Shown: positions 1,460 to 54,501 of the stretch, piece by piece
How the letters are laid out: each line of letters begins with the position of its first letter
Position numbering within the stretch: the stretch's first letter is position 1
Assembly (NCBI GenBank): GCA_964016885.1
Contig: OZ024740.1
Location: 214,458,001 to 214,522,000, forward strand
Length of the DNA stretch: 64,000 nucleotides
Direction: 5' to 3'
DNA from: Eledone cirrhosa
Taxonomy: Eukaryota
Notes under the pieces: generated by a model
What the model was told of the DNA's origin: nothing
Seen by the model: the letters and a program-made list of their open reading frames with translations, nothing else
Database searches by the model: none
Program-made: the position numbers and the translations under genes

Positions 1460-2412
<953 letters not shown>

Positions 2413-2483
2413 AAAAAGAGATGAAATCGAAAATGCAACTGAAGTCTTATTTTTTTTAAAAATATATATATTTTTATTTGGTT

Positions 2484-2521
2484 CTTTTACCGGTTTCGCA
2501 GTTCTTCTGCTTTTCAAAAGG
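2484..2521 (-). ncRNA. Minimal type I hammerhead ribozyme, U3-A8 core variant
   Basis: Reverse strand reads CCTT-TTGAAAA-GCAG aagaa CTGC-GAAA-CCGG-TA-AAAG. Confidence 0.65.
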
Positions 2522-3549
2522 TGAGTTGAGATGGAGGGTCTGTGGTTTTTCTCACATATGGTTGGTCTCTGAATGTTACTTGTTTTATATGGAAAAAGTG
2601 GCTCGAAATTCCAGGTTTTTCGAGATTTGATTGGTTTGTCAATAATTATAATAAATTTCGTGCCAGTTCACGTTACAATAGTTCTTCAAATAAGAGAGGG
2701 GGGGGGGTTGTCACAGGTTGTTTTTTTCATATATGAGTGTTTGAATTTCTTTTTACTTGAAAATAGGAGGCTCACGAAGGCTTTTTTTTGGTTGGTTATA
2801 AATGAAATTTGGCTGTCACGTGAACAAGTTTTTATTACATTTTTGCGCCCTTATTTGGAAAACTATTCTGTAGTCTTTATAGTGAATGTTATGACAATGG
2901 AGAGATAGTGGTCAAGAGAAAAGGGATTGGGAGAAATGTTCTGGTTCAGTGAATATGGCCAGCTCGCCGGGGTGTCAGAGTTCAGATTTTCTATTGAGAC
3001 TGAAGATATGTATGTTTATTTGTGTGCTTGTGTGTATGTGTGTGTGTGTATGTGTGTATTGGAAGATGATTCTATTAGTAGAGATGGGGGAGGGAGTTGT
3101 GTGTGTGTGTATATGGGTGTTATGTGTGTGTGTGCGAGTATGTTAAGATAGAGAGAATATATATTTTTTGTGTGTGTGTATATATATATGTGTGTAGGAA
3201 AGTGGTTCTATTAGTAGAAATGGGGAGTGAGTTGTAGATGTGGGGGTTGTTATGTGTGTGTATGGGTGTTATGTGTGTGGGAGTATGGTTAGCATGTTAA
3301 GATGAAGAGAATATATATATATATATATATATATATTGTGTGTGTGTGTATGTGTGTGTGTAGGAAAGTGATTCCTTTAGTAGGAATATTTTTGAATGAA
3401 CATATTTTCCTTACTTTTTCGTGTTTGCTGTTGTATTGCCAGTGCAAACGTATGTTAAGGTTTATTTAGTTCGGGTTTTTATTTTCTAAAGTAGAAGGTG
3501 TTATGTGTGTGTGTGTGTATGTCATATTGTGGTGTTGACATAATGTATA

Positions 3550-5279
3550 TTAAACCTTATTTAATGTTGGTCTATATTTTTGAATAAACATATTTTCCTT
3601 ATTTATTCGCATTTGTTCTGTTGTATTGTTAGCGCAAAGGTAAAATGGGAAGACTTGGAATTTGGGTGTCTTATTACTTGCGCAAATGTCTAGATGTGCA
3701 CTTAGTGGTATCTGTCTCGTGGTTGGATCTCGTAATTGTTGGCGATGAACTGTCATTCTGTTTCTGAGTGTGAGTTTAGTTTGTCCTATATAATCTTCAT
3801 TGCATCCTTTACATTTAATGGCATAAATTAGATTTTTTGATGAGCAAGTGAAGTGATTTTTTACAGTAAAATTTTGTCCTGATTTAAATGTATACGTGTT
3901 GCCTTCAATGAGGTGAGTGCAGGTTCCACAATTAGAGCGACCACATTTTTTGATACTTGGTTGTGGGTTTGTGGTAGGTAATTTGGCATTGGTGAGTAAT
4001 GTTTTCAGTGATTTTGGTTGTCTTTTGCTTTTGATTATTTTGTGTGTTTCAAGGGCTTTTTTTCATTCTTGGGTTTTGTTTTAGTAGTGGGATGTTATTG
4101 TGAATAGTGTTGTAAGCTTCCGCATTTCTTGGGTTGTGTGTTGAGATATATGATAGAATATTGGACGTACCTTGAATTTGTTTCTGTTTCCGTAATTCAT
4201 CAATGCCTATTGCTTTAGCCCTTTCTATTCCATTATTTATTAGTAATAGTGGGTACTCTCTCTCAAGTAGAATTTCCTTTAATTCTTGAAGTCTTTTATT
4301 TCGCGTTTCATAATTGGAGACAATTGTGAAAATTCTTCTTGCTAGGTTAAAAGGAATGTTCGTCTTCGTGTGCTTTGGATGGTTAGAGGTGAATAGCAGA
4401 TATTGTTTGGAATCTGTTGGTTTGTAGTGTATGTCAGTTTCGATATTTGTGTCTTTTTTTGTGATTAAGATGTCCAGAAATGGGAGTTGATCTTGGCTGT
4501 ATTCCATTGTGAATTGGATGTGGTTATTGATGCCGTTTATTAAGTTTTTGAAATCCTTCAGTTGGTCGAGTGTGTGGGACCAAAGAATGAGGCAATCATC
4601 CAAGTAGCGTTTCCAATTCTCTGATAAATATTTGTGGAAGTTCAATCCGTATTTTGATTTGGACTGTTCATATATCTGGACTTCTAAGTATGCCATGACT
4701 AAGTTGGCATAAGTTGGAGCGGCTTTTGTGCCCATCGCAGTCCCCGATATTTGCTTGTAAGTATTGCCATCGAAATCAAAACAGTTGTTCTGTAGGATGA
4801 ATTTTAATCCCTCGGTGATGAAGCTTTTTTCTATTCTGTCAGGTATCTCATTGGGATATTTCTCTAGCCAGAATCCTATTGCTTCTAGTCCGTATTGGTG
4901 TGGGATCGTTGTGTAGAGATTCACTACATCGAAAGACACAATAATAGTGTCGTTGTTGACATGTTTGGGGAGGTGGTTTAAGAGGTCCAGATCGTCTCTT
5001 ACAAGGCTTGGTATGTGTTTCAGTATTGGTTTCAGTAGTATGTCTATAAAGTTGCTCAATCTGTGTGTTTCACATTGTGGGCCCGCTACAATTGGTCTTA
5101 ATTTAAGGTCTGTGGGGTATTGTGTGTTCACGCAGGCTGAGGTGGTTTGTTTACAGGCATCGTTGATTATTTTACATTTGTGGATCTTCGGAAGTCCGTA
5201 AAGGTTGCTGGTTTTGTATTCAAAATTTGTTAAATAATCGCATTCCTTTTTAGTTAGGTCTTCCTGGTATCGATAAATC
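3550..5279 (-). pseudogene. PLE reverse transcriptase plus GIY-YIG endonuclease ORF (5'-truncated, one frameshift near 4060)
   Basis: Motifs LYGLPKIHK, RPIV, SFDVVNLYT, GTAMG..APTYANL, WKRYLDD, LPFLDI, linker KCGRSNCGTC and LIYAIKCKGCNEDYIGQT. Ends RPTLNKV-stop at 3550. The frameshift lies in a T homopolymer. Confidence 0.93.
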
Positions 5280-6137
5280 AGTGTTTAATTTGGTCATTAT
5301 TTTTGATTGCACACAATATATATATATATATATATATTCTCTTCATCTTAACATGCTAACCATACTCCCACACACATAACACCCATACACACACATAACA
5401 ACTCCCACACCTACAACTCCCTCCCCATTTCTACTAATAGAACCACTTTCCTACACACATATATATATACACACACACAAAAAATATATATTCCCTCCAT
5501 CTTAACATACTCGCACACACACACATAACACCCATATACACACACACACAACTCCCTCCCCCATCTCTACTAATAGAATCATCTTCCAATACACACATAC
5601 ACACACACACACACATACACACACACAAGCACACAAATAAACATACATATCTTCAGTCTCAATAGAAAATCTGAACTCTGACACCCCGGCGAGCTGGCCA
5701 TATTCACTGAACCAGAACATTTCTCCCAATCCCTTTTCTCTTGACCACTATCTCTCCATTGTCATAACATTCACTATAAAGACTACAGAATAGTTTTCCA
5801 AATAAGGGCGCAAAAATGTAATAAAAACTTGTTCACGTGACAGCCAAATTTCATTTATAACCAACCAAAAAAAAGCCTTCGTGAGCCTCCTTTTTTCAAG
5901 TAAAAAGAAATTCAAACACTCATATATGAAAAAAAACAACCTGTGACAACCCCCCCTCTCTTATTTAAAGAACTATTGTAACGCGAACTGGCGCGAAATT
6001 TATTATAATTATTGACAAACCAATCAAATTACTTCTCGAAAAACCTGGAATTTCGAGCCACTTTTTCCATATAAAACAAGTAACATTCAGAGACCAACCA
6101 GATGTGAGAAAAACCACAGACCCTCCATCTCAACTCA

Positions 6138-6175
6138 CCTTTTGAAAAGCAGAAGAACTGCGAAACCGGTAAAGG
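6138..6175 (+). ncRNA. Minimal type I hammerhead ribozyme, U3-A8 core variant
   Basis: CCTT-TTGAAAA-GCAG aagaa CTGC-GAAA-CCGG-TA-AAGG. Stems I and II are perfect, stem III is palindromic, site is GUA. Confidence 0.75.
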
Positions 6176-6314
6176 AACCAAATAAAAATATATATATTTT
6201 TAAAAAAAATAAGACTTCAGTTGCATTTTCGATTTCATCTCTTTTTCTTTATACTTTCACTCGTGTAGGACACCTCGGTTATCTTTCATTTTGTAAAAAA
6301 AACCTCACTTTCTA

Positions 6315-10760: not shown

Positions 10761-10786
10761 TATACATATATATATATCCATATATA

Positions 10787-11445
<659 letters not shown>

Positions 11446-11448
11446 TAT

Positions 11449-11521
11449 ATTAAAATAACAGATTAAAGTTTAAGCAAAGAATCGCTAGCTGCTTTCACCC
11501 TTAACGTGATCTTCTGAAACT
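11449..11521 (-). mobile_element. Short family B pseudo-LTR fragment containing the HHR-like motif (11468-11520)
   Basis: Reverse strand reads GTTT-CAGAAGA-TCACgttaaGGGT-GAAA-GCA...TGC-TT-AAAC. Confidence 0.7.
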
Positions 11522-11536
11522 ATGTGTAGGTGTTTC

Positions 11537-11576
<40 letters not shown>

Positions 11577-11809
11577 GAAACACCTACACACTCACACAGA
11601 GATACGTTCATATACATACACAAAAAACATATATGTATACATACATGTGCATGCTTACATACACATAGACATATAGAAGTACAGCTGGTTACTATATATA
11701 ATATGTAAATTATATATATATATATATATATAACATGATGATGATCATATTTATAATTGCGTATCAGAAGATACATACACACATACATGTATATATATAT
11801 ATATATACA

Positions 11810-12558: not shown

Positions 12559-13291
<733 letters not shown>

Positions 13292-13654
13292 ATAATAATA
13301 AATTTCAAGACTAAAATCCAAAGAGGGCTCGATAAGGATAAATATATATCAAATATATAAGAACCGTAGAGCAAATATTTATTAAAATAACAGATTAAAG
13401 TTTAAGCAAAGAATCGTTTCTTTTACCCTTTGCGGGATCTTCTGAAACTAACAAAGTCAATCTGTGAACGCAGAAGTGGATATTTCAAAAAACGTTGCAA
13501 CCGGAGGAAGACAGGAAGACGATACTTTGGTTCGTGGAAACGTTCCCTGGCAAATATATATATATTAATAATAATAATAATAATAATAGTAATAATAATA
13601 AAATTGAAGACTAAAATCCAAAGAGGGCTCGATAAGGATATATAACAGATTAAA

Positions 13655-13703
13655 GTTTAAGCAAAGAATCGCTGCTTTCACCCTTAACGGGATCTTCTGA
13701 AAC
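13655..13703 (-). ncRNA. Hammerhead-like motif with CAGAAGA core
   Basis: Reverse strand reads GTTT-CAGAAGA-T CCC gttaa GGG T-GAAA-GCA gcgattctt TGC-TT-AAAC. Confidence 0.6.
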
Positions 13704-14630
13704 TAACAAAGTCAATCTGTAAACGCAGAACTGAATATTTCAAAAAACGTTGCAGCCGGAGGAAGACAGGAATACGATACTTTGGTTCGTGGAAACGTTC
13801 GCTGGCAAAGAACGGGAAAAAACGAATATAATACGTCATTAAAAGGAGCGGTGAAAAACAATTACGCGCAAAGACAAAACCACGTTTAGGTATAAAAGAG
13901 GTCGTAGACTAATGTTCTCTTAGGTGGTGCATAGAGACGTTCTCTGGCAATGAACGAAAAAACGAAGATAATAAGTCATATGTGGAGCGTGGATAACAAT
14001 AGCACGCAAAGACAAAACCACATAAATGGTATAGCAGAAGTCGTAGACTAAAATTCTAACTAGGAGACCAAATGAATCTCCGCTACAGAGTTAAGAACAA
14101 AGTAAATAAATACAATACAGAAGTAATAGAAATAAATAAATACATACACGCAAACAAATACGTACATACACAAGCATACGCAACACCTTACCATAGATAT
14201 ACAATCACGCACATATAAATATGTGTGTGTGTGTATGCTTGTGTACAAATAAATAAATAATTATATAAACGTATATAAGTAGATAAATACGTATATAACA
14301 AGCGCACACACATACCTACATATAAATATACAAATGTTCGGAGACGTTAGTCAACTAAAACAAGAAGTACACATATACACACACCCACCATACGTACGAA
14401 CCTGCATACACACGCAGACGCAAAACTCCCATATACACATAGCTAAACCCTAAATACCAGAATATATAAAAATTATACGCCAAAACAATCAAATATACGT
14501 ACGAGAAGGTATACAACCTTCACAAAACATACAGGTAATATATACTTACCTATGCAAATAAGTAAAGGAATAAACAACACATATACTTAGCTCCCACATC
14601 AGGACGTAAAATATCCACGTATAGATCGTA

Positions 14631-14888
14631 CTATCCGTTAGGGTATAACGTGGGGCTGTAATACAGGAAAGTTTTGTGCAATTTATGTTTACAAGCCGAA
14701 ATTGCCTCAGATTTTTTGTTTAAGATGTGGTCTGTGGCGTAGAGTATTTCCAGGGCCTCAGCGGCGCAGAGGTCACATGGTCTTTTATTTCCGTTATACG
14801 ATCTAGCCCTAGCTAGGATCTCCCAGTGTAACTTATATTGGGTGTGGTTGTCTTTTAGACTCCAGATATAAGCTGAAAGTGATGTCAT
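14631..14888 (-). pseudogene. C-terminal part of a PLE GIY-YIG endonuclease domain
   Basis: TSLSAYIWSLK..Y.L.W.IL....SY.....CDLC..E..I......LNKKSE..S.CKH, a pattern recognised from PLE endonuclease C-termini. Confidence 0.75.
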
Positions 14889-14914
14889 ATTCCTTCTTAG
14901 AGGGTAACGAAAAA

Positions 14915-41666: not shown

Positions 41667-41727
<61 letters not shown>

Positions 41728-42034
41728 TGAAACAAAATGAAAACGAAATTTCATTTCTCACTCTTAGTATGGCACTTACTTAAATGTAAGTATGCATGTA
41801 TACGTACATACATATATGTATACAGACGTACAGTAGCATGCACATATATATATATATATATACATATATACATACATATGCATACAGGTACACATACATA
41901 TATGCACGTATCAGTTTAGCGGCGCTTATTATAAAGTCGCTTTGTTCGTTTGTAAACAAACTGAACAGCCTGAATTTATGCCATACGGTGTTAAGGCAAC
42001 CACGTCACCTTTTTGTTCAACACTGACACAGGAA

Positions 42035-42075
42035 CGATGTACTAGTTTCAAGCTTGTTAGCTATCATCAGCACCG
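42035..42075 (-). ncRNA. Hammerhead in the left arm of the array (also 42509-42549, 42983-43023, 43457-43497, 43931-43971)
   Basis: Reverse strand reads CGGTG-CTGATGA-T AGCT aaca AGCT T-GAAA-CTAG-TA-CATCG. Confidence 0.85.
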
Positions 42076-44160
42076 TTTACCCATCTGCCAGATAGTTGAA
42101 CGTTCGAAAGTATATACTTTCCTTATGAAAATTAACGGCTGAGCAGCCTAATTTGCATATTGAGTGAGTTAAATCGGTCAGGCATACCGAAAACGATAAA
42201 TTGAAACAAAATGAAAACGAAATTTCATTTCTCACTCTTAGTATGGCACTTACTTAAATGTAAGTATGCATGTATACGTACATACATATATGTATACAGA
42301 CGTACAGTAGCATGCACATATATATATATATATATACATATATACATACATATGCATACAGGTACACATACATATATGCACGTATCAGTTTAGCGGCGCT
42401 TATTATAAAGTCGCTTTGTTCGTTTGTAAACAAACTGAACAGCCTGAATTTATGCCATACGGTGTTAAGGCAACCACGTCACCTTTTTGTTCAACACTGA
42501 CACAGGAACGATGTACTAGTTTCAAGCTTGTTAGCTATCATCAGCACCGTTTACCCATCTGCCAGATAGTTGAACGTTCGAAAGTATATACTTTCCTTAT
42601 GAAAATTAACGGCTGAGCAGCCTAATTTGCATATTGAGTGAGTTAAATCGGTCAGGCATACCGAAAACGATAAATTGAAACAAAATGAAAACGAAATTTC
42701 ATTTCTCACTCTTAGTATGGCACTTACTTAAATGTAAGTATGCATGTATACGTACATACATATATGTATACAGACGTACAGTAGCATGCACATATATATA
42801 TATATATATACATATATACATACATATGCATACAGGTACACATACATATATGCACGTATCAGTTTAGCGGCGCTTATTATAAAGTCGCTTTGTTCGTTTG
42901 TAAACAAACTGAACAGCCTGAATTTATGCCATACGGTGTTAAGGCAACCACGTCACCTTTTTGTTCAACACTGACACAGGAACGATGTACTAGTTTCAAG
43001 CTTGTTAGCTATCATCAGCACCGTTTACCCATCTGCCAGATAGTTGAACGTTCGAAAGTATATACTTTCCTTATGAAAATTAACGGCTGAGCAGCCTAAT
43101 TTGCATATTGAGTGAGTTAAATCGGTCAGGCATACCGAAAACGATAAATTGAAACAAAATGAAAACGAAATTTCATTTCTCACTCTTAGTATGGCACTTA
43201 CTTAAATGTAAGTATGCATGTATACGTACATACATATATGTATACAGACGTACAGTAGCATGCACATATATATATATATATATACATATATACATACATA
43301 TGCATACAGGTACACATACATATATGCACGTATCAGTTTAGCGGCGCTTATTATAAAGTCGCTTTGTTCGTTTGTAAACAAACTGAACAGCCTGAATTTA
43401 TGCCATACGGTGTTAAGGCAACCACGTCACCTTTTTGTTCAACACTGACACAGGAACGATGTACTAGTTTCAAGCTTGTTAGCTATCATCAGCACCGTTT
43501 ACCCATCTGCCAGATAGTTGAACGTTCGAAAGTATATACTTTCCTTATGAAAATTAACGGCTGAGCAGCCTAATTTGCATATTGAGTGAGTTAAATCGGT
43601 CAGGCATACCGAAAACGATAAATTGAAACAAAATGAAAACGAAATTTCATTTCTCACTCTTAGTATGGCACTTACTTAAATGTAAGTATGCATGTATACG
43701 TACATACATATATGTATACAGACGTACAGTAGCATGCACATATATATATATATATATACATATATACATACATATGCATACAGGTACACATACATATATG
43801 CACGTATCAGTTTAGCGGCGCTTATTATAAAGTCGCTTTGTTCGTTTGTAAACAAACTGAACAGCCTGAATTTATGCCATACGGTGTTAAGGCAACCACG
43901 TCACCTTTTTGTTCAACACTGACACAGGAACGATGTACTAGTTTCAAGCTTGTTAGCTATCATCAGCACCGTTTACCCATCTGCCAGATAGTTGAACGTT
44001 CGAAAGTATATACTTTCGTTTTCATTTTGTTTCAATTTATCGTTTTCGGTATGCCTGACCGATTTAACTCACTCAATATGCAAATTAGGCTGCTCAGCCG
44101 TTAATTTTCATAAGGAAAGTATATACTTTCGAACGTTCAACTATCTGGCAGATGGGTAAA

Positions 44161-44201
44161 CGGTGCTGATGATAGCTAACAAGCTTGAAACTAGTACATC
44201 G
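44161..44201 (+). ncRNA. Hammerhead in the right arm of the array (also 44635-44675, 45109-45149, 45583-45623)
   Basis: CGGTG-CTGATGA-T AGCT aaca AGCT T-GAAA-CTAG-TA-CATCG. Confidence 0.85.
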
Positions 44202-45872
44202 TTCCTGTGTCAGTGTTGAACAAAAAGGTGACGTGGTTGCCTTAACACCGTATGGCATAAATTCAGGCTGTTCAGTTTGTTTACAAACGAACAAAGCGAC
44301 TTTATAATAAGCGCCGCTAAACTGATACGTGCATATATGTATGTGTACCTGTATGCATATGTATGTATATATGTATATATATATATATATATGTGCATGC
44401 TACTGTACGTCTGTATACATATATGTATGTACGTATACATGCATACTTACATTTAAGTAAGTGCCATACTAAGAGTGAGAAATGAAATTTCGTTTTCATT
44501 TTGTTTCAATTTATCGTTTTCGGTATGCCTGACCGATTTAACTCACTCAATATGCAAATTAGGCTGCTCAGCCGTTAATTTTCATAAGGAAAGTATATAC
44601 TTTCGAACGTTCAACTATCTGGCAGATGGGTAAACGGTGCTGATGATAGCTAACAAGCTTGAAACTAGTACATCGTTCCTGTGTCAGTGTTGAACAAAAA
44701 GGTGACGTGGTTGCCTTAACACCGTATGGCATAAATTCAGGCTGTTCAGTTTGTTTACAAACGAACAAAGCGACTTTATAATAAGCGCCGCTAAACTGAT
44801 ACGTGCATATATGTATGTGTACCTGTATGCATATGTATGTATATATGTATATATATATATATATATGTGCATGCTACTGTACGTCTGTATACATATATGT
44901 ATGTACGTATACATGCATACTTACATTTAAGTAAGTGCCATACTAAGAGTGAGAAATGAAATTTCGTTTTCATTTTGTTTCAATTTATCGTTTTCGGTAT
45001 GCCTGACCGATTTAACTCACTCAATATGCAAATTAGGCTGCTCAGCCGTTAATTTTCATAAGGAAAGTATATACTTTCGAACGTTCAACTATCTGGCAGA
45101 TGGGTAAACGGTGCTGATGATAGCTAACAAGCTTGAAACTAGTACATCGTTCCTGTGTCAGTGTTGAACAAAAAGGTGACGTGGTTGCCTTAACACCGTA
45201 TGGCATAAATTCAGGCTGTTCAGTTTGTTTACAAACGAACAAAGCGACTTTATAATAAGCGCCGCTAAACTGATACGTGCATATATGTATGTGTACCTGT
45301 ATGCATATGTATGTATATATGTATATATATATATATATATGTGCATGCTACTGTACGTCTGTATACATATATGTATGTACGTATACATGCATACTTACAT
45401 TTAAGTAAGTGCCATACTAAGAGTGAGAAATGAAATTTCGTTTTCATTTTGTTTCAATTTATCGTTTTCGGTATGCCTGACCGATTTAACTCACTCAATA
45501 TGCAAATTAGGCTGCTCAGCCGTTAATTTTCATAAGGAAAGTATATACTTTCGAACGTTCAACTATCTGGCAGATGGGTAAACGGTGCTGATGATAGCTA
45601 ACAAGCTTGAAACTAGTACATCGTTCCTGTGTCAGTGTTGAACAAAAAGGTGACGTGGTTGCCTTAACACCGTATGGCATAAATTCAGGCTGTTCAGTTT
45701 GTTTACAAACGAACAAAGCGACTTTATAATAAGCGCCGCTAAACTGATACGTGCATATATGTATGTGTACCTGTATGCATATGTATGTATATATGTATAT
45801 ATATATATATATATGTGCATGCTACTGTACGTCTGTATACATATATGTATGTACGTATACATGCATACTTAC

Positions 45873-46428
<556 letters not shown>

Positions 46429-54013: not shown

Positions 54014-54501
<488 letters not shown>

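What the first reader, a model, noticed from the sequence alone, without database searches (positions are those of the whole stretch)
11449..11590. Insert 5' end is joined to an inverted copy of the flanking target DNA centred on (TA)n (snap-back signature, case 1)
Seen: the pLTR fragment 11449-11521 (- strand) is followed by tgtgtaggtgtttctatgta (11523-11542), then (TA)n, then tacatagaaacacctacaca (11571-11590), which is its exact reverse complement and continues as flank. Inference: the cut (TA)n end is self-complementary, so it folded back and primed synthesis on its own flank before being joined to the cDNA. The result is an inverted target-site duplication instead of a direct TSD.
Basis: partly seen in the sequence, partly recalled or inferred. 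Interest (0 to 1): 0.7.

Follow-up and report, generated by a model that had tools for sequence, protein, structure and literature searches.

The report
Fold-back scar at Penelope insertion
A short stub of a Penelope-type jumping gene is joined to a mirror-image copy of the DNA beside it, likely because the cut TA-repeat end folded back and copied itself before being joined; this is a rare repair scar of a kind already described for other retrotransposons.

Summary
11523-11590 is a perfect 68-bp palindrome (18-nt arm, (TA)16, arm). It starts at the base where a 74-bp stub of a Hydra-like Penelope element ends, at the element's 5' side. The 20-mer has 3 hits in 3.0 Gb, two of them these arms, so it is not element consensus. 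Four more cases were found at this family's 5' junctions: 5 of 489 scored, in a sample enriched for them, against 0.02 expected. It is therefore a by-product at about 1% or less, not a substitute for a TSD. Most junctions are direct joins or inverted element copies. Five similar TA-centred fold-backs lie at other elements' ends or between TA runs. Best reading: the second, TA-ended break end self-anneals, is extended and is end-joined to the cDNA. The same product is published for L1 (0.3%), R2 and yeast breaks. My searches found no report for PLEs. No empty allele could be read. The scan noted the same class earlier on other DNA of this genome (e1-9579328).

The parts
11343..11450 (.). (TA)n run at the element's 3' side, likely the primer end for reverse transcription
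   Evidence: (period 2, 54 copies); role inferred
11449..11522 (-). 5'-truncated stub of a Hydra-like Penelope element: 3'-terminal segment starting at the inner of two fixed element ends, with a hammerhead-like core
   Evidence: 69 of 70 bases match L125; this segment lies 925-951 nt downstream of the ORF-end match in 12 copies; 25,343 exact 16-mer hits in G000
11523..11540 (+). 18-nt inverted copy of the right flank, joined to the stub with 0 nt microhomology
   Evidence: 3 hits of the 20-mer in G000
11541..11572 (.). (TA)16, centre of the palindrome and predicted fold-back point
   Evidence: the TA run alone folds at -6.2 kcal/mol and the whole palindrome at -29.0 kcal/mol with DNA parameters
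11573..11590 (+). template arm, continuous with the right flank
13289..14909 (-). longer copies of the same family in the window, with the C-terminal part of the endonuclease at 14634-14909; fixes the orientation

Best explanation
The 18-nt mirror copy likely arose during integration of the Penelope-like element, when the second cut end, ending in self-complementary TA repeats, likely folded back, was extended along its own strand and was then end-joined to the truncated cDNA. Steps: (1) the element's endonuclease cuts both strands in the TA run (inferred; both-strand cutting of AT-rich DNA was shown in vitro for another PLE, PMC11167929); (2) the left end primes reverse transcription, which stops after about 74 nt (the stub is shown, the order is inferred); (3) the right end's 3' TA tail self-anneals and a DNA polymerase copies 18 nt of flank (the product is shown, the enzyme is unknown); (4) the unwound new end is joined bluntly to the cDNA by NHEJ or alternative end joining (0 nt microhomology is shown, the pathway is inferred). 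It is an occasional repair by-product with no function of its own.
For: The arm starts exactly at the element end and is site-unique. Four further cases lie at the family's 5' junctions: L091 (16 nt, 4 nt microhomology), L296 (20 nt, 1 mismatch, 2 nt), L097 (9 nt, 2 nt) and L321 (two rounds, 7 and 12 nt, 3 nt). Expected by chance: 0.02. No TA remnant lies between element and arm in any of the five. Arm lengths and microhomologies of 0-4 nt match yeast fold-back insertions (most 5-34 bp; 0-5 bp microhomology; PMC11724301). Leaving out this case, arms of 12 or more occur at 2 of 340 junctions followed by a TA run against 5 of 9,063 other TA runs (Fisher p = 0.024; p = 0.002 if the numerator is 3). 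An experimental L1 insertion shows the same product primed by a TA/AT pair (bioRxiv 10.1101/2024.12.14.628481).
Against: No empty allele was seen, so the starting structure is inferred. The event is rare: 5 of 489, in a sample I enriched by pattern and by eye. Five similar TA-centred fold-backs sit elsewhere: near the 3' ends of other PLE families (L156, L171, L298), at a SINE-like 5' end (L310) and between two TA runs (L152). A break in a TA run can therefore give this product without being a PLE 5' junction. The truncation point is only a modest hot spot: 8 of 100 junctions not selected for their end fall at positions 160-164.
Confidence: 0.65

Rival explanations
1. A later double-strand break in the TA run beside an already inserted stub was repaired by fold-back synthesis and end joining, removing the TA remnant or an inverted stub. 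The chemistry is the same but it is unrelated to integration.
For: Fold-backs next to elements that lack 10-30 nt of their usual 3' tip (L156, L298, L171) and one bounded only by TA runs (L152). TA cruciform fragility is recalled, not tested.
Against: Fold-backs are about 10-fold more frequent at this family's 5' junctions than at other TA runs (enriched sample). None of the five junction cases keeps TA between element and arm. The junction lies at a common truncation point.
Confidence: 0.2
2. The cDNA 3' end (or the RT) switched template to the top strand of the right flank, copied back towards the break and re-joined through TA pairing. The final sequence is the same, but the cDNA is the primer.
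For: This is the reading given for R2 snap-back on nearby rDNA (PMC11371274). Microhomology of 2-4 nt in the four other cases.
Against: 0 nt microhomology at this junction. TA-centred fold-backs also occur where no cDNA 3' end is involved (L152).
Confidence: 0.1
3. Assembly or read artefact, or a palindrome that pre-existed with the element landing at its edge.
For: No read-level confirmation was obtained for this junction.
Against: Five cases start exactly at element ends. L296 has diverged by 1 base between arms. Site-unique palindromes are very rare at other TA runs (5 of 9,063). The family inserts into TA runs, not beside arms.
Confidence: 0.05

Closest known systems
[quoted passage not shown] 2023, PMC10191854, passages read; bioRxiv 10.1101/2024.12.14.628481 Fig. 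4D-E, passages read)
   Same: An inverted copy of target DNA at the reciprocal end, joined to the 5' end of the insert; a rare class (3 + 1 cases, 0.3% + 0.1%); one experimental case primed by a 2-bp TA/AT pair.
   Different: Here the element is a PLE, the arm is shorter (18 nt against 52-220 bp in Nam et al.), the fold-back centre is a long TA run, and the event is germline-inherited, not somatic.
R2 'snap-back' 5' junctions in PRINT (PMC11371274, passages read)
   Same: Insert 5' end followed by sequence from the opposite strand of the cDNA or, less often, of nearby target DNA.
   Different: The authors read the cDNA 3' end as the primer; the target is rDNA and the system is engineered.
Local foldback inversions at DSBs in yeast (PMC11724301, abstract and section 15 read); SD-MMEJ snap-back (PMC2943611, PMC5728401, search listing only)
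   Same: Short templated inverted duplications (most 5-34 bp) made by fold-back, then joined with 0-5 bp microhomology.
   Different: No retroelement partner; priming there uses an inverted microhomology with a 41-nt loop, not a TA run.
EN+ Penelope-like elements, Hydra clade; inverted 5' pLTR structure (PMC8557442, passages and section 11 read; PMC3846280, passages read)
   Same: TA targeting, heavy 5' truncation, inverted copies at the 5' end (132 of 489 junctions here), two fixed 3' ends.
   Different: The known inverted copy is element sequence; here it is unique target DNA. The passages read do not describe this.

Membership tests
Retrotransposon 5'-junction foldback (L1/R2 type) | Inverted copy of target DNA adjacent to the insert's 5' end | tested here: met
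Retrotransposon 5'-junction foldback (L1/R2 type) | Copied segment is not part of the element | tested here: met
   3 hits of the 20-mer in G000 against 25,343 hits of the element 16-mer
Retrotransposon 5'-junction foldback (L1/R2 type) | Self-complementary priming site at the fold-back centre | tested here: met
   (TA)16 at the centre
Retrotransposon 5'-junction foldback (L1/R2 type) | Absent from the pre-insertion allele; arises with the insertion | tested here: inconclusive
   No paralogous empty site in G000; public contigs do not span the site
PLE, Hydra clade | Single ORF, RT followed by C-terminal GIY-YIG-type endonuclease | tested here: met
   L125 frame of 674 aa with YRDD at 350 and a GIY-YIG-like motif at 588, broken by a stop near its end. 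Motifs were read by pattern; Pfam gives no RT or GIY-YIG hit for it
PLE, Hydra clade | RWK-like motif, DKT, CxCX5C linker, CxxC and CxH around the conserved E/N | tested here: met
   RWR, DKT, CxCX5C, CxxC found in L125; CxH lies after the stop and in P0001; definition from PMC8557442 section 11
PLE, Hydra clade | Insertion into (TA)n | tested here: met
PLE, Hydra clade | Canonical hammerhead ribozyme | tested here: inconclusive
   A core-like motif with one changed base is present; no hammerhead row in Rfam output shown; fold z = 0.5, -0.6, 0.5
PLE, Hydra clade | Placement in the Hydra clade on an RT tree | not tested
   No reference Hydra proteins were fetched
PLE inverted pLTR (twin-primed) junction | Inverted segment is element sequence | tested here: not met
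   The arm is site-unique flank

The most novel reading that the evidence does not exclude
TA-targeting Penelope elements pass through a true double-strand break whose TA ends fold back on themselves. The extended ends are either joined to the cDNA (this case) or themselves prime reverse transcription just inside an element's 3' end (L298 with 7 nt homology, L156, L171). These elements would then be a steady, genome-wide source of small TA-centred palindromes of host DNA and a sequence record of the unsolved second-end step of PLE integration.
Probability: 0.25. Interest if true: 0.5.

Novelty: new member of a known kind. Interest (0 to 1): 0.27.

Why it matters
How PLEs resolve the second end of their target is still open (PMC11167929, PMC8557442). 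Fold-back scars of unique host DNA show that this end can be free, single-stranded and open to host repair, as proposed for L1. With more than 25,000 copies of this family, even a rate under 1% would give on the order of a hundred scorable events (extrapolated). The single locus is a neutral scar, and the class is already published for L1, R2 and plain breaks.

Tried and rejected
Arm as element consensus or as another family's end: rejected. Snap-back as the usual 5' junction: rejected; 0 of 30 loci at the same truncation point and 5 of 489 overall. Public contigs: (X1, X2, X4, X5) was uninformative because the palindrome was skipped as a repeat. One search (X1-X4) showed no contig across the junction, while the junction of another copy (L008) appeared in X2 and X3. 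This hints that sample S1 lacks this junction, but a hole in contigs proves nothing, and no empty allele was read. Rfam: only miRNA-like hairpin hits below gathering score at the palindrome, and 3 weak unrelated hits on the longer copy. Pfam: nothing for P0001 and one weak unrelated hit for the L125 frame. One search's anchor mostly returned a composite subfamily and added no case. Dropped before counting: L314 (arm is a family end, 3 loci), L133, L019, L157, L315 (low-complexity or tandem arms), element-to-element palindromes (L013, L068, L125, L142, L181 104-nt, L329, window 54305-54389), arms of 8-11 nt or with several mismatches away from the family's junctions (L071, L127, L147, L181 8-nt, L254/L043, L313), and two doubtful 4-nt cases (L286, L195). 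Literature searches that found no PLE target fold-back. Supplements were not read and may hold junction examples.

Full report
Observation. The window lies at G000:C1:214458001-214522000 in a 3.0-Gb, TA-rich animal genome. A perfect palindrome spans 11523-11590: an 18-nt complex arm, (TA)16 at 11541-11572, and the reverse-complement arm, which runs on into the flank. Of 178 TA runs in the window, this is the only one with a perfect complex arm of 12 or more; a second hairpin at 54305-54389 has element sequence on both sides.

The insert. 11449-11522 matches the 3' end of a long copy (L125) at 69 of 70 bases, plus a 4-nt insertion. Its last 16-mer occurs 24,072 times with the element's next base and 1,271 times with another base. 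In 12 of the 55 tblastn rows this segment lies 925-951 nt downstream of the ORF-end match on the coding strand. The L125 frame (674 aa to a stop) carries RWR, DKT, YRDD, a CxCX5C linker, a GIY-YIG-like motif and CxxC, with CxH after the stop. These are the motifs given for the TA-targeting Hydra clade (PMC8557442 section 11). Pfam does not recognise the protein and no tree was built. A hammerhead-like core is present but not confirmed.

Is it a signature? The first 30 of 1,271 hits ending at the same point gave no target fold-back; about half were point variants and the rest were direct TA joins or inverted element copies. I then listed element anchors followed within about 36 nt by a TA run (100 of 770, 77 of 77, 100 of 108, 100 of 1,158 and 100 of 1,566 rows listed). 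I fetched the first 30 loci of each, nearly all the rest, and those remaining rows whose junction sequence looked unexplained. In 1.92 Mb, 489 alignment ends of the family's last 330 nt were scored: 132 inverted element, 128 direct TA, 88 other microsatellite, 122 other, 14 continuing, 4 target fold-backs and 1 ambiguous. Some of the 489 are subfamily breakpoints, not independent junctions. The four are this case, L091 (16 nt), L296 (20 nt, 1 mismatch) and L097 (9 nt). A wider test found a fifth, L321, with two successive copies of the flank (7 and 12 nt). Among 341 junctions followed by a TA run, cross-pairing predicts 0.02 cases. Microhomology at the element-arm join is 0, 4, 2, 2 and 3 nt. 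Because the sample was enriched, about 1% is an upper estimate, and it is close to the 0.3-0.4% reported for L1.

Is it PLE-specific? Among 9,404 unique TA runs, 7 had a site-unique arm scoring 12 or more against 0.2 in shuffles. Three are the junction cases; the others are L152, L156, L298 and L310, and L171 was added by eye. L310 joins the copied arm to the 5' end of a SINE-like element (label from appearance, not from a library). L156, L171 and L298 join it to other PLE families just inside their usual 3' ends, and L152 lies between two TA runs. The fold-back is thus a general behaviour of TA-ended breaks in this genome. It is about 10-fold enriched at this family's 5' junctions (2 of 340 against 5 of 9,063, p = 0.024, this case left out).

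Mechanism. Most likely both strands are cut in the TA run. The left end primes a short cDNA, the right end self-anneals and is extended by 18 nt, and the two are end-joined (0.65). The product is shown; the order and the enzymes are inferred. A PLE protein cuts and extends both strands of AT-rich DNA in vitro (PMC11167929, parts 1-2 of 4 read). Rivals are a later break in the same TA run (0.2), cDNA template switching onto the flank (0.1; the zero microhomology argues against it here) and artefact or pre-existing palindrome (0.05). The empty allele could not be read. A TSD inside a TA run is not readable, so 'instead of a TSD' stays untested.

Known and new. The same product is published for L1 (PMC10191854; bioRxiv 10.1101/2024.12.14.628481, with a TA/AT-primed case), for R2 (PMC11371274) and for plain yeast breaks (PMC11724301). 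PLE papers describe inverted element copies and palindromes at their junctions, not inverted target DNA, in the passages read. Searches listed no paper whose title or abstract opening reports it for PLEs. Earlier scan notes describe the same class elsewhere in this genome. Verdict: real, rare, and a new instance of a known junction class; interest 0.27.

Noticed in passing
window 10771-10879 and 11210-11320: Two outward-facing stubs of another TA-targeting repeat, about 330 bp apart, are exact inverted copies over at least 91 nt. They may be an inverted duplication with a long loop or two copies from one RNA.
   Followed up: partly
window 11325-11342: The 5' end of the left neighbour stub carries a 5-bp hairpin and resembles a 9-nt piece of the right flank; it may be an older templated junction in the same TA run. 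Weak.
   Followed up: no
L298:5422-5480, L156:9100-9147, L171:5048-5190: The fold-back arm is joined to another PLE family 10-30 nt inside its usual 3' end (7 nt shared in L298). The folded-back end may have primed reverse transcription, or the tip was lost in a later break.
   Followed up: partly
L310:5030-5240, L147:8392-8421: TA-centred fold-backs (36 nt, 10 nt) joined to the 5' end of SINE-like elements.
   Followed up: partly
L265, L297, L279 junctions: Family 5' ends joined to short copies of DNA 227-669 bp away, direct (L265, L297) or inverted (L279): other templated insertions.
   Followed up: partly
window 41722-45877: 4.1-kb perfect palindrome built of 474-bp tandem units (100% identical), switching direction near 44017.
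   Followed up: no
window 2406-6253: PLE with RT (4049-5284) and GIY-YIG (3550-4062) flanked by long 96-99% inverted repeats.
   Followed up: no
L212-L241: A composite non-autonomous subfamily with a fixed breakpoint about 210 nt into the element end makes up most of the 100 listed rows of 1,158 hits.
   Followed up: no
window 13676-13699 and 13417-13444: The family's hammerhead-like core has a changed base at the second core position and is kept in thousands of copies; activity unknown.
   Followed up: partly
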